Origin: a virus | Taxonomy: Duplodnaviria > Heunggongvirae > Uroviricota > Caudoviricetes | Virus record (IMG/VR): IMGVR_UViG_2541047860_000009 | Location: 1 to 33,718 of that record | Reading direction: 5' to 3' (one strand) | Length of the DNA stretch: 33,718 nucleotides | Shown here: in pieces, positions 3,001-6,000 of the stretch | Position numbering within the stretch: the stretch's first letter is position 1 | Layout of the letters: the number at the start of each line of letters is the position of its first letter | Made by a program: the position numbers

Positions 3001-6000
3001 GGAGTTACGCTCGCCGTTAACAGACAACAGGGCAGAGAACGGTGCTGTCTTTTTCAGTTTGAGAGTGGCGGTGTTATCTGCGTGACCTGGTTCATCAATA
3101 GTACCCAGGTTAAGCACACTGACGGCACGCATATTATCAGCATCGATAAAGCAGCGGGTGCCTTCATCTGCAAGATCTTTAGAATAACGGGTAAAATCAT
3201 CGATGCTGGCAGTGGAAAGCGCACCACGGAAACGGAAGCGATTTAAATTAAATTTTTCCAGATCATGAATGCGGAAATTCTCAGGCAATGCCACAGCATC
3301 GGCACCAATCTTACTGATAATTTCATTAACACCCTGAGCAGAAATAAGGGCATGGATTTGATTAATTGCGGTTGCGTCTAAGTTCTGAGACATAATAAGT
3401 CCTCACTATATAAAGATATTCAGTGATGAGATAAATAATCAGTTAATTAAAAACGATATTAACGACCTGCTGCGCGGAGTTTTCCGTCAGGTTCACCGGC
3501 AAGAGTCAGCAACTGTCCCTGGTCTTCCTGCAGAATAGTCAGGCGACCACCGCGATTGACATACATCGGCGTTTCGGTGGTGTCTTCTTCGGAAATTTTC
3601 CCGCGGTTAGTCGGGCGAACATATGAGAGTTTGTGTTTGATTTTCACTCGGTTCTCATCAAACGGTTCGATTTCTAGGTTGAGCGAGACCTTACCTTTGG
3701 TTTTCGTGTTCATCACACCGGAAGCGACTTCACTGAGAACTGCGCCGATTTTGGTTTCAAATACGCCGCCGTCCAGCTCCCCGATAAATGCCTGCACATC
3801 AGTACTGCGTTCGCTAGCCATTTTGCTGCTCCTCATCATATCGACCCTGCAAGGTCGGTTAGTTTCTCCACAAAACAGAGAAGAACACCTGCGGTGACTG
3901 CCGCCCGGATGGATTGGGTTATGAGCCCGTCGTCCGGTGATGCTCTTCTCTGTTTTGTAAAAAGGACGGTACCAGCCGGAAGCAAGGGTACAAGCTGGTA
4001 CCGCCAAGACTACACACAGCATAAAGTTGTGGTGCCGGGTGCCTCCCGGTGCCTGGCGAAGGTTGCACACCAGGCGGGTGGGTATCCACAGAAGGTCGAC
4101 TGTCAGCCTCAACCTTAACCCGCGTGCGCTGAGCCGCATTCACCACAACGCTAAGGATTCTCTCTGGTTGAAAATACTTAGCTGTTATGTGCCTGCTTTT
4201 AGCCACATCAGGCGAGGTGGACCTAGTTATTCCCCAACAACAAGGATTCGGTTAATCTGGTTATCCCCAACAACGCAAAAGGAAAAGAAATGTCCGGTAA
4301 TATCTATACGCTGTACAAATCCCACTGTGAAAATGTTGGAAAGTATCGGGGCATTGAAATCAGTGGGGTAGTGTCATCAGTCGAAATAAGCAAAGTTGAA
4401 TCAAGGGCAACATTACTTACTCTTTTGGACCTTGTCTTACATGAGCACCGGAAGAAATTCGGCACTCCCTATAATCAGTTGAATGGGAAAAAGGCTCTGG
4501 TTCACCTTATTCTGATGAAGCATCACTGGATGCCAAAACAGATTAATGAGATGAAATTTGATGAACTTCTTCTTTCAATTCAGGATGAACTCACACTTGA
4601 TAAAATAAGCGTAACCGCCCAGAAATTTTTAGATTATCGAGACTGGAGATCACAAATTCATCACTTTGATGATTTTGACGAAAATGAATGGGATCCTAAT
4701 TTGTCTGCACAATATCTAAAGTAACATCCTGTGATAAAACCGTGATTTCCTGATCCAGTTTTTTTAAGGAGTCTATTGTTTCCTGTCGATAAGACAGCAC
4801 TTCACGAAGCTGGTTTATAGCTGCCAGCTTCTTTGTCATCCACTCATAAATTTCCTCATCTGTGTAGCCAGGCGCGACGATTTTGGGTTCTGTTTTGTGC
4901 ATTTCACATCTCCTCAAGTTATCAGTTACTTGTTGATGGGGACCAGATTGTTAAAGAGCTAAGCGTCCTGTAGGGCGCTTTTTTGTTGCTAACGAATCAT
5001 CCTGGACTTCATATGCCCCAGGCGGCTACTTCGTGGGCGTCCTGCCTGTTCGTTTTTGACATTTACTGACTGCTTACGACACATGCACCGTGTTGCAACC
5101 AGATTTTGTTGTAATCCTGTAGTTGGTCTGGAACAAAAGATAAAATTAAATTGTGAGATATGCAAGTGGTATTTGCGTGATATGCAAGTTGATAGGTAAT
5201 AAAAAGCCACCTTTCGGTGGCCGATGGAAGGATATTGAGGTTAATTATGTCTCTTAAGGGTTTGAGACTGACTGATTAAGACCTTTCCAAAGACCATGAA
5301 TCGGTGTTCGTTTTCGCTAGTAATTCCCCATTCACGGTAAATCTGGTTATCAGAAATCACCAGCAGTTTGTCAGGAATCATTTGAAGTCTTTTAACGTAT
5401 ATTTTGTCATCAAAACCAAAGACATATATACCATCACCATCAAACTGATTGATGCTGACATCAACGAAGATGAGATCTCCTGGCTCAATGGTTGGACACA
5501 TACTGTCCCCACGAACGTTGATAACTTTGATGTGATTGGCTGGTCGTCCGCCGAACATTGATACAGCATTATCAGTTCTGTATTCGATGGCATGAATCAC
5601 ATCAATGACATCACCGCCCTGGATAAGGCCATTTCCCGCACTGGCACTGATATCCAGCATTTCAATACGGAACACATCCTTCACCTGCGCAACATCCTCA
5701 TTATTACTGTTTTTATATACAGTATTACTTTTGTGGGCAGAGGTAAAGAGATCAGCAATATCAACACCTAAGCTCTTGGCAATATTACTCAGTGTTTGTT
5801 CGGTAAATTGTTTTTGCTTACCCGTTTCTAAGCGCGAGATGTTCACCGCATCTACTCCTATTGCTTCAGCGAGATCGGCGATTTTCATGTTCTTCGCTTG
5901 GCGAAGTTGTCTGACTCGGTTTCCTATGTTCATGCGTTTATTACATTTCTTTATTGCGTGATAAGCAAATCAACTTGCGCAAAATAATTGCGTGAAATAA

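What the first reader, a model, noticed from the sequence alone, without database searches (positions are those of the whole stretch)
4226..4275. Tandem GTTAT(T)CCCCAACAAC direct repeats immediately upstream of the 144-aa ORF
Two copies of a 16-17 bp motif (about 4226-4243 and 4259-4275) lie ~34 bp apart, ending 15 nt before the ATG at 4290. The spacing and position suit a pair of regulator binding sites or a repeat-containing leader controlling this gene; the motif is unrelated to the cI operator.
Basis: seen in the sequence. Interest (0 to 1): 0.4.

Follow-up and report, generated by a model that had tools for sequence, protein, structure and literature searches.

The report
Phage sieB-type promoter and antisense-RNA cassette
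The two repeats are real and belong to a conserved ~100-bp control cassette, first described in front of the sieB exclusion gene of phages P22 and lambda, which carries a promoter on one strand and the antisense RNA 'sas' on the other; here it sits in front of a different, uncharacterised prophage gene.

Summary
GTTATTCCCCAACAAC lies at 4226-4241 and GTTATCCCCAACAAC at 4260-4274, 34 nt apart, and the second copy ends 15 nt before the ATG at 4290. This is far more than chance gives.

The repeats are not an isolated operator pair. They are part of a ~100-bp module (4182-4292) homologous to the region upstream of sieB in P22 and lambda. A covariance model built only from P22/lambda-type sas sequences finds one hit in the window, 4282->4182 on the minus strand (56 bits, E 7e-14).

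Mapped onto the P22 annotation:
- Repeat 1 overlaps the -35 region of the sieB promoter.
- TAATCT (4253-4258) is the -10.
- Repeat 2 is the first ~10 nt of the mRNA.
- The whole module read leftward is the sas antisense RNA.

Repeat 1 forms a covarying hairpin with a GGGG loop that is more stable on the antisense strand. The same module precedes at least 34 unrelated small-protein families, of which SieB is only one. It exists in at least five sequence types. Within each type both repeats carry the same core.

Verdict: a new variant of a known kind. A regulator-binding role has no support. The function of the 144-aa cargo is unknown.

The parts
4226..4241 (+). Repeat 1, GTTATTCCCCAACAAC. It overlaps the -35 region of the predicted promoter. 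On the minus strand it is the loop and arms of antisense hairpin 1.
   Evidence: Aligns with P22 TGTACCCCTACAG inside the annotated sieB promoter.
4260..4274 (+). Repeat 2, GTTATCCCCAACAAC. The predicted transcription start lies at about 4263-4265, so the core is the first ~10 nt of the mRNA leader.
   Evidence: Aligns with P22 ATTCACCCCTACAG, where the annotated sieB RNA start is the A just before CCCC.
4253..4258 (+). Predicted -10 hexamer TAATCT, between the repeats.
   Evidence: Aligns with P22 and lambda TAAACT. All 44 two-copy clusters carry a TAnnnT hexamer at this position, in 12 different spellings including TATAAT, against 16% of shuffles (variants seen).
4182..4292 (-). sas-like antisense RNA gene. 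It runs from the start codon of the 144-aa ORF through both repeats to the conserved 3' hairpin.
   Evidence: A covariance model built from P22/lambda-type sas only hits 4282->4182 (-) at 56.3 bits, E 7e-14, the sole hit in the window. The extension to about 4292 is by homology to the 5' end of the RNA-seq-defined P22 sas (PMC13397905).
4191..4220 (-). Nearly invariant hairpin region, GCCTG..CCAC..CAGGC..GGTGG. It is the 3' stem-loop of the antisense RNA. In single-unit variants it also spans the -35 to -10 interval of the sense promoter.
   Evidence: the GCCUG/CAGGC pairs are kept in 27-30 of 30 sequences. It lies inside the P22 sas RNA.
4222..4245 (-). Antisense hairpin 1, with a stem around repeat 1 and a GGGG tetraloop (the complement of CCCC 4232-4235).
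   Evidence: Window minus strand folds at -7.2 kcal/mol against -4.0 on the plus strand. Across 34 distinct sequences the means are -8.8 and -6.55, and the minus strand is more stable in 28. Compensatory and G-U changes.
4290..4724 (+). Cargo gene, a 144-aa ECs1072-family protein of unknown function, unrelated to SieB.
   Evidence: NCBIfam NF033230 at 1.7e-46 and phrog_5286. No Pfam, PADLOC or PDB sequence match. No similarity to P22 SieB. AF2 model is all-alpha with pLDDT 77 and has no fold match.
4138..4169 (+). Degenerate third unit, ATTCACCACAACGCTAAGGATTC..CTGGTT. Its complement forms part of the 5' region of the adjacent STnc100-like RNA.
   Evidence: D1, D2; score 28 against 14.1 +/- 2.4, 0 of 1000 shuffles.
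5151..5189 (-). oL operators and the presumed pL promoter, the source of leftward transcription that runs antisense through the cargo gene and the module.
   Evidence: The operator repeat TTGCGTGATATGCAAGT is shared with oR. The promoter hexamers are my own reading.

Best explanation
The two repeats are the hallmark of a bidirectional control cassette homologous to the PsieB promoter and sas antisense RNA region of phages P22 and lambda.

On the + strand a sigma-70 promoter drives the 144-aa gene. It has a weak -35 inside repeat 1 and the -10 TAATCT at 4253-4258. The transcript starts at repeat 2 (about 4263-4265), giving a ~26-nt C/A-rich leader with the Shine-Dalgarno AAGGA. The gene points against the early-left operon, so it can be made in the lysogen.

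When the prophage is induced, or a related phage infects, leftward transcription from pL (about 5150-5190) runs antisense through the gene. This yields a ~100-130-nt sas-like RNA (4292->4182) that covers the start codon, the Shine-Dalgarno sequence and both repeats, and ends in a conserved stem-loop. By analogy with P22, this RNA pairs with the leader and shuts off translation of the cargo, so the phage escapes its own accessory or exclusion gene.

Repeat 1 is not in the mRNA. On the antisense RNA it forms a 10-11-bp hairpin with a GGGG loop.

Shown here: the homology, the anatomy, conservation of the -10, the strand bias of the hairpin, and the co-variation of the two repeats. Shown elsewhere for P22: the promoter, the RNA start, the existence of sas RNA and the translational switch. 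Inferred for this locus: promoter activity, production of the antisense RNA, and its effect on the 144-aa protein.
For: - Homology. The module aligns with the region upstream of sieB in P22, lambda and Hafnia phage Pocitis76. A covariance model built without any window-type sequence finds only 4282->4182 (-), at 56.3 bits and E 7e-14.
- P22 landmarks. The P22 RefSeq record annotates the sieB promoter (record 29690-29720), the RNA start (29727) and the sieB and esc CDSs. Repeat 1 maps to the -35 region and repeat 2 to +1.
- sas RNA. The 127-nt P22 sas RNA seen by RNA-seq (PMC13397905) is the exact reverse complement of the P22 stretch from the sieB AUG through both repeats and the hairpin.
- The -10. 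All 44 two-copy clusters keep TAnnnT between the repeats, in 12 spellings, against 16% of shuffles.
- Context. The operators of pL lie at 5151-5189. The cargo is flanked by minus-strand genes. The same arrangement holds in lambda, P22, ev017, Pocitis76 and three other repeat types.
- Hairpin. The hairpin around repeat 1 is more stable on the minus strand in 28 of 34 sequences and shows compensatory and G-U changes.
- No own promoter. Reg-seq found essentially no leftward promoter upstream of e14 ymfH in 39 conditions (PMC12133099). This fits an antisense RNA made from pL and not from a promoter of its own.
- Function of sas. It is described as a cis-antisense RNA that switches translation within sieB (PMC12197685; PMC7067206 preprint).
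Against: - There are no expression data for this locus or for any type-I module.
- The -35 (TATTCC) is poor, and the generic promoter scan reported nothing here. The P22 counterpart TGTACC is equally poor, yet that promoter is annotated as mapped.
- The cargo is unrelated to SieB and has no evident Esc-like internal start, so the 'switch' part of the P22 mechanism may not apply.
- The antisense module is followed directly by an STnc100-like RNA (4179->3956), which is absent in P22 and lambda. The 3' end and processing of the antisense RNA could therefore differ.
- Variants exist with repeat 1 and the -10 but no repeat 2 (L002 and CFT073 type), and with a single unit (e14). The duplication is therefore not essential for the cassette.
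- That sas is processed from the pL transcript rests on my recollection of Ranade & Poteete 1993 (Genes Dev 7:1498), which I could not read.
Confidence: 0.8

Rival explanations
1. The repeats are two binding sites on DNA for a sequence-specific regulator, phage or host, that activates or represses the promoter of the 144-aa gene.
For: - The direct repeats have a fixed spacing of 32-36 bp in all 45 two-copy clusters.
- One copy lies at about -35 and one at +1, which are classic activator and repressor positions.
- Both copies change together between types, as sites for one protein would.
- A YhaJ pull-down was reported for the e14 ymfH upstream region (PMC12133099), although e14 has no repeat pair.
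Against: - The motif occurs nowhere else in the phage.
- No candidate binder co-varies. Lambda and P22 share type II although, from established knowledge, they have different repressors, Cro and N proteins. One type precedes many unrelated cargo genes, so autoregulation by the cargo is unlikely.
- The symmetry around copy 1 is kept by G-U pairs on the minus strand, which are A-C mismatches in a DNA palindrome.
- The whole stretch is known to be an RNA in P22.
Confidence: 0.08
2. The pair is a functionless scar. A tandem duplication of the leader unit arose during cassette swapping at this recombination hotspot and is carried along passively.
For: - Homology between prophages breaks exactly at unit edges (window 4220, 4260, 4274).
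- A third, decayed unit exists at 4138-4169.
- Single-unit modules and modules lacking copy 2 exist and presumably work.
- The e14 single unit aligns with copy 1, and its ATG aligns with the P22 -10, as expected for a duplication.
Against: - The two-copy architecture, with the same offset and spacing, is kept in at least five diverged types.
- The copies match each other at 10.7 of 12 positions, against 6.0 of 12 between types. The observed pairing is the single best of 720 permutations. Neutral decay would have separated them.
- Copy 1 is embedded in a covarying hairpin.
- The -10 between the copies is universally kept.
Confidence: 0.08
3. The repeats act on the mRNA only, as C/A-rich translational enhancers or Hfq (ARN)n sites in a long leader that starts upstream of repeat 1. 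No antisense RNA is involved.
For: - The cores are C/A-rich and G-poor, and each is followed by a Shine-Dalgarno-like AAGGA.
- Unrelated phage genes carry a single CCCCAACAAC-N-AAGGA just before an ATG (L255, L256, L261, L271, L278).
- A -10-like TGTTATGTG lies just upstream of the conserved hairpin (my reading).
Against: - The mapped P22 start puts repeat 1 outside the mRNA.
- The hairpin around repeat 1 is weaker on the + strand.
- In two-copy modules the hexamer that serves as the -10 in single-unit variants is degenerate, ACCTAG or TTCTCG.
- This reading is not exclusive of the main one for repeat 2.
Confidence: 0.1

Closest known systems
P22 (and lambda) sieB promoter / sas antisense RNA / esc system (Ranade & Poteete 1993, J Bacteriol 175:4712 and Genes Dev 7:1498; P22 RefSeq NC_002371 annotation; RNA-seq in PMC13397905)
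   Same: - Homologous ~100-bp module with the same order of parts: conserved hairpin, repeat 1, -10, repeat 2, Shine-Dalgarno, ATG.
- Same position, in front of a gene pointing against the early-left operon.
- Same two-repeat architecture with 33-34-nt spacing.
   Different: - The repeat core is CCCCAACAAC here and CCCCTACAG in P22 and lambda.
- The controlled gene is a soluble all-alpha 144-aa ECs1072-family protein, not the membrane protein SieB, and has no evident Esc-type internal start.
- The antisense RNA abuts an STnc100-like RNA that P22 and lambda lack.
- There are no experimental data for this variant.
IS10 RNA-OUT / RNA-IN antisense pair (established knowledge)
   Same: A possible working analogy. 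A stem-loop antisense RNA whose loop is complementary to the extreme 5' end of the target mRNA would block its ribosome-binding site. Here the GGGG loop and 5' arm of antisense hairpin 1 are complementary to the CCCC-core that begins the mRNA.
   Different: There is no homology. Here the loop is complementary to the mRNA through a duplicated copy and not through the cis-overlap itself. The pairing pathway is untested.
STnc100 (Rfam RF02076) / PasD prophage sRNA family
   Same: It lies immediately to the left on the same (minus) strand, at 4179->3956. It is a prophage-borne, multi-copy family.
   Different: The repeats lie outside it. The match is below Rfam's gathering score, 43.4 against 47 bits. 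The sas-like module occurs with unrelated left flanks and without STnc100.
Morons, the prophage accessory genes with their own promoter inserted against an operon (Hendrix and colleagues; established concept)
   Same: The cargo is a small gene with its own promoter, inserted in opposite orientation into the early-left operon. It is highly exchangeable: at least 34 families occupy this slot.
   Different: Here the promoter, leader and antisense unit is itself a conserved portable cassette shared by unrelated cargo genes. It is not brought in by each moron.

Membership tests
P22/lambda PsieB-sas module | Sequence and structure homology to sas RNA | tested here: met
   A covariance model built from 8 P22/lambda-type sequences only gives a single window hit at 4282->4182 (-). 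It scores 56.3 bits, E 7e-14, and is full length, model positions 1-102. See also alignment A2.
P22/lambda PsieB-sas module | Lies antisense to the 5' end of a gene oriented against the early-left (pL) operon | tested here: met
   The ORF at 4290-4724 is on the + strand, between minus-strand ORFs at 3459-3842 and 4696-4917. The oL operators lie at 5151-5189. Lambda and P22 have the same layout.
P22/lambda PsieB-sas module | Sigma-70 promoter with its -10 between the repeats and the RNA start at repeat 2 | tested here: inconclusive
   TAATCT at 4253-4258 aligns with P22 TAAACT, and TAnnnT is kept in 44 of 44 clusters. The start site was not measured, and the generic scan did not call a promoter.
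P22/lambda PsieB-sas module | The controlled gene encodes SieB with an in-frame internal Esc product | tested here: not met
   BLASTP of the 144-aa protein against P22 SieB gives E 9.4. The family is NF033230 ECs1072. The protein has no TM-like segment, unlike SieB.
P22/lambda PsieB-sas module | The antisense RNA is made from leftward early transcription and blocks translation of the target | not testable with these tools
   This needs Northern blots or RNA-seq after induction, plus translational fusions.
STnc100 (RF02076) | Score at or above the Rfam gathering threshold, with the repeats inside the match | tested here: not met
   The match covers 3956-4179 (-) at 43.4 bits, below the threshold of 47. 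The repeats at 4226-4274 lie outside it. The gathering-level scan finds only C4 and isrK.
Operator pair of a DNA-binding regulator | The motif recurs at other regulated sites, or is a DNA-level dyad with a co-varying binder | tested here: not met
   There is no other exact copy in the window. The symmetry depends on G-U pairs on one strand. One repeat type serves phages with different regulators and cargo genes. A co-varying binder was not searched for exhaustively.
Type III toxin-antitoxin (ToxIN-like) repeat array | Tandem full-length ~34-36-nt RNA repeats directly upstream of a ToxN/AbiQ-type toxin | tested here: not met
   Only 15-16 nt plus an SD-like pentamer of each 34-nt unit is repeated, and there are two units. 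The downstream protein has no Pfam or PADLOC match.

The most novel reading that the evidence does not exclude
The two repeats may be the specificity determinant of a family of portable antisense 'self-immunity' switches. Repeat 2 is the 5' end of the accessory-gene mRNA. Repeat 1, displayed as the loop and 5' arm of a hairpin in the sas-like RNA, would nucleate pairing with that 5' end. On this view the two copies must stay identical, and they have diversified together into at least five orthogonal types.

The type would then decide which incoming or co-resident phages can switch off a prophage's exclusion gene in trans, which would make it an arms-race code. The cassette would serve more than 30 unrelated, mostly uncharacterised cargo families, which would be candidate exclusion or defence genes.
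Probability: 0.3. Interest if true: 0.7.

Novelty: new variant of a known kind. Interest (0 to 1): 0.45.

Why it matters
- Annotation. It turns an unannotated stretch into a recognisable unit: a promoter plus an antisense RNA. This stretch is present in at least 965 of 5426 complete E. coli genomes for this type alone.
- Reach of a known mechanism. The 1993 P22 sieB/sas mechanism, known from one gene, may be a general portable cassette in lambdoid prophages, placed in front of dozens of unrelated small genes.
- A way to find genes. The cassette gives a simple sequence handle for finding prophage-expressed accessory or exclusion genes, together with a built-in hypothesis for how the phage avoids harming itself.
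- A testable question. The paired repeat types offer a clean experimental system for asking how antisense RNAs recognise their targets, and whether that recognition is under diversifying selection.

Tried and rejected
- Type III toxin-antitoxin array: rejected. There are only two short partial repeats and no ToxN-like protein.
- Leader peptide or uORF reading through both repeats ('SPTT' twice, frame of ORF 4027-4371): rejected. The two hairpin alleles differ by a 1-nt indel, so the frame is not conserved, and the ORF end varies with the cargo (my reading).
- IHF, DnaA-box, sigma-54, CII-type TTGC repeats and response-regulator boxes: compared by eye with remembered consensus sequences. None fits, and none was tested formally.
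- The generic promoter/terminator scan gave nothing at the repeats.
- The genome-contig scan with the STnc100 core hairpin GCCGGGTGCCTCCCGGTG mostly returned REP-like multi-copy hits and unrelated GC-rich genomes. Only the E. coli representative carried the element.
- RNAalifold on the 30-sequence alignment recovered only the invariant 3' stem and a weak GGGG/YYCY pairing. Imperfect alignment registers hid hairpin 1, so I analysed it by per-sequence folding and loop-anchored counts instead. Two sequences (L315, L368) were mis-registered.
- Function of the 144-aa cargo: no Pfam, PADLOC or PDB sequence hit. There are only 14 homologues. The AF2 model has pLDDT 77. The best PDB Foldseek match has E 0.5; the recurring HEPN toxins have TM about 0.28 and are not significant.
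- Ten other cargo families gave no Pfam match above cutoff.
- Two literature searches were swamped by word-start matches.
- The original Ranade & Poteete papers are not held.
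Full report
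**Observation.** The window carries GTTATTCCCCAACAAC at 4226-4241 and GTTATCCCCAACAAC at 4260-4274. The identical 11-nt cores TCCCCAACAAC lie at 4231-4241 and 4264-4274. The second copy ends 15 nt before the ATG of a 144-aa ORF at 4290-4724. A local alignment of the two halves scores 29, against 11.1 +/- 2.5 in 1000 shuffles, none of which reached it. A third, decayed unit lies at 4138-4169. The exact core occurs nowhere else in the window.

**Setting.** The window is a lambdoid prophage nearly identical to phage Kati and SfIV. Its layout is:
- an integrase at 386-1609 (+);
- YfdQ/DUF2303 and YfdP-like genes on the minus strand;
- a 447-bp non-coding stretch at 3843-4289;
- the 144-aa ORF on the + strand, NCBIfam 'ECs1072 family phage-associated protein';
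- a 73-aa ORF on the minus strand;
- the LexA-like repressor at 5241-5933 (-), followed by cro.

The operator sequence TTGCGTGATATGCAAGT occurs twice at 5151-5189 and again next to cro. The early-left promoter pL therefore lies to the right of the 144-aa gene and fires leftward, antisense to it.

The left part of the non-coding stretch (4179->3956, minus strand) is an STnc100-like RNA, just under Rfam's threshold, ending in a DicF-like terminator. It corresponds to the doubtful e14 ORF 'ymfH'.

**Conservation and junctions.** The stretch 3840-4220 is present in 2782 of 5426 complete E. coli genomes. Homology stops at window positions 4220, 4260 or 4274, which are the edges of the repeat units, and different + strand genes follow. 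The segment 4186-4289 is found in 1113 genomes; in 965 of them the match covers at least 80%, which includes both repeats, and it is never annotated.

A scan of IMG/VR for the core plus AAGGA gave a clearer picture. An approximately 95-nt block, made of the hairpin GCCTG..CCAC..CAGGC..GGTGG, repeat 1, TTAATCT and repeat 2, is conserved in prophage lineages whose left flanks are unrelated. It always lies immediately upstream of a + strand ORF.

**Identification.** Annotated phage records placed the same block upstream of sieB in a lambda-like phage and a Hafnia phage, and then in P22 and lambda themselves.

P22 reads ...TGTGCCTGTCTTTTAACCACGTCAGGCTCGGTGGTTCTCGTGTACCCCTACAGCGAGAAATCGGATAAACTCTATTCACCCCTACAGAGAGTAAAAAGAGAATCGCCGATG. 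It has the same hairpin, two repeats (CCCCTACAG) 34 nt apart, and a -10-like hexamer between them. The P22 RefSeq record annotates the sieB promoter over the first repeat and TAAACT. It places the sieB RNA start at the A just before the second CCCC.

The sas antisense RNA of P22, seen by RNA-seq as a 127-nt species (PMC13397905), is the exact reverse complement of the P22 stretch from the sieB AUG through both repeats and the hairpin.

A covariance model built only from eight P22/lambda-type sequences finds one hit in the whole window. It covers 4282->4182 on the minus strand, scores 56.3 bits with E 7e-14, and is full length.

The repeats therefore sit in a homologue of the PsieB/sas module:
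- repeat 1 is the -35 region;
- TAATCT (4253-4258) is the -10;
- repeat 2 is the first nucleotides of the mRNA;
- the whole module read leftward is the sas-like RNA.

**Support from comparative anatomy.**
- Downstream of the conserved hairpin I found 85 sequence clusters. Of these, 45 have the two-copy architecture, with copy 1 starting 8-12 nt after GGTGG and a spacing of 32-36 nt.
- All 44 clusters tested keep a TAnnnT hexamer at the -10 position, in 12 spellings (TAATCT, TAAACT, TATAAT, TATTAT and others), against 16% of shuffles.
- There are at least five motif types: I CCCCAACAAC (this window), II CCCCTACAG (P22, lambda), III TTCCACAGTCAA, IV CCCCAATGCAA and V CCCCCACAA.
- Within a module the copies match at 10.7 of 12 positions on average. 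Orthologous copies from different types match at 6.0 of 12. The observed pairing of copy 1 with copy 2 is the single best of 720 permutations.
- Copy 1 lies in a 10-11-bp hairpin with a CCCC loop, GGGG on the antisense strand. The hairpin is more stable on the minus strand in 28 of 34 distinct sequences (mean -8.8 against -6.55 kcal/mol). This is because G-U pairs there become A-C mismatches on the plus strand. The stem shows compensatory changes between types, such as U-A to A-U, G-U to G-C to A-U, and U-A to C-G. This points to RNA structure on the antisense strand and not to a DNA palindrome.
- Single-unit modules, such as e14 upstream of ymfI, align with copy 1. Their ATG aligns with the -10 of P22. 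Their unit is a covarying stem-loop whose 3' arm is the Shine-Dalgarno sequence. I infer that the two-copy form arose by tandem duplication of a unit made of -10, +1 motif and Shine-Dalgarno.

**Cargo.** In 204 loci the first ORF after the module falls into at least 34 unrelated families of small proteins. SieB is one of them, and the 144-aa ECs1072 family is the second most common in this sample. None of ten further families has a Pfam match above cutoff.

The 144-aa protein has no similarity to SieB and no TM-like segment. It has only 14 detectable homologues. Its model is all-alpha with pLDDT 77 and has no significant fold match. In three other repeat types the cargo is likewise a + strand gene embedded among minus-strand early genes, and two of the three loci show a repressor-like gene further right.

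**Mechanism.**

Shown here:
- the homology and the part-by-part correspondence;
- conservation of the -10;
- the strand-biased, covarying hairpin;
- the co-variation of the repeats;
- the orientation against pL.

Shown by others for P22:
- the promoter and RNA start (RefSeq annotation);
- the sas RNA;
- its role in switching translation within sieB (reviews).

That sas derives from the pL transcript is my recollection of Ranade & Poteete 1993, which I could not read. Reg-seq found essentially no leftward promoter upstream of e14 ymfH, which fits.

Inferred for this locus:
- in the lysogen the promoter makes a short-leader mRNA for the 144-aa protein;
- on induction, leftward transcription yields the sas-like RNA, which pairs with the leader and start codon and shuts the gene off.

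More speculative: the GGGG loop and 5' arm of the antisense hairpin (anti-repeat 1) may nucleate pairing with the CCCC-core at the mRNA 5' end (repeat 2), as RNA-OUT does with RNA-IN in IS10. This would explain why the two copies must stay alike.

**Rivals.**
- A protein operator pair is not excluded, but it lacks any positive evidence. It is disfavoured by the absence of other sites, by one type serving phages with different regulators and cargo genes, and by the RNA-type symmetry.
- A neutral duplication scar is contradicted by the retention and concerted change of the copies.
- An mRNA-only role as a C/A-rich enhancer may well apply to repeat 2. It cannot explain repeat 1 if the start site is as in P22.
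- Counter-examples to any strict need for two copies exist: single-unit modules, and a variant with repeat 1 and the -10 but no repeat 2.

**Known versus new.** The control principle and the P22 and lambda sequences are known. Rfam 15 has no family that matches this stretch, and RefSeq never annotates it.

As far as the papers I could search show, the following have not been described:
- the module's use in front of dozens of unrelated genes;
- its sequence types with paired repeats;
- the antisense-strand hairpin around repeat 1.

I could not read the two original papers, so they may already mention the repeats. I file the finding as a new variant of a known kind.

Noticed in passing
window 3956-4179 (-): STnc100-like RNA, just below Rfam's gathering score (43.4 against 47 bits, E 3e-8). 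Its 3' end is a DicF-like terminator hairpin at 4003->3967. It coincides with the e14 ORF 'ymfH', which RefSeq marks as a frameshifted pseudogene in other prophages, so it is probably an RNA gene and not a protein gene. Conserved in 2782 of 5426 E. coli genomes.
   Followed up: partly
window 3870-3958: Long inverted repeat with 25-nt arms, 84% complementary, 39 nt between them. It lies between the STnc100-like terminator and the YfdP-like start at 3842. Function unknown.
   Followed up: no
window 1857-2579 (+): A 240-aa ORF next to the integrase matches only the N-terminal ~195 positions of the 537-position AbiU model (PADLOC 6.4e-25; a PHROG Abi-alpha-like family at 1.9e-6). It may be a truncated or short abortive-infection gene.
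   Followed up: no
window 7192-7380 (+): isrK (7192-7268, 64 bits) and C4 antisense RNA (7293-7380, 82 bits) lie back to back inside the mechanically listed ORF 6832-7668. This suggests a P1/P7-type secondary immunity region, and that this ORF is not a real gene over its whole length.
   Followed up: no
window 5151-5189 and 5954-5998: The repressor operators TTGCGTGATATGCAAGT mark oL/pL and oR. A terminator-like hairpin at 5222-5205 (-) follows the repressor gene.
   Followed up: partly
loci L129, L155, L165, L170, L179 (genome contigs): The 18-nt core hairpin of STnc100, GCCGGGTGCCTCCCGGTG, is multi-copy in Enterobacter and Pantoea genomes, and single matches are common in Kosakonia. One Pantoea plasmid has five copies within about 800 bp. 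It looks like a REP-type dispersed element that shares this hairpin.
   Followed up: no
L004 2860-2925 (e14), L003, L007, L331, L339 and others: Single-unit versions of the module: GGTGG-TATnCT (an extended -10-like TGgTATnCT), followed by a stem-loop whose stem covaries (GCTGG/CCAGC, CTTGG/CCAAG, CCTTTTA/TAAAAGG) and whose 3' arm is the Shine-Dalgarno sequence. The loop carries one copy of the CYCACACAG-like motif.
   Followed up: partly
conserved hairpin, window 4191-4220 and all loci: There are two linked alleles of the hairpin, GCCTG-CTTTT...GGCGAGGTGG and GCCTGTCTTTT...GGCTCGGTGG. Both occur in several repeat types (I, II and III). The 1-nt insertion always accompanies the GA-to-TC change. 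Unexplained.
   Followed up: no
L002 2890-2950; E. coli CFT073 (H114): A variant that keeps repeat 1 and the -10 (TAATCT) but has no repeat 2. Its cargo is a 170-aa protein with an N-terminal hydrophobic segment.
   Followed up: no
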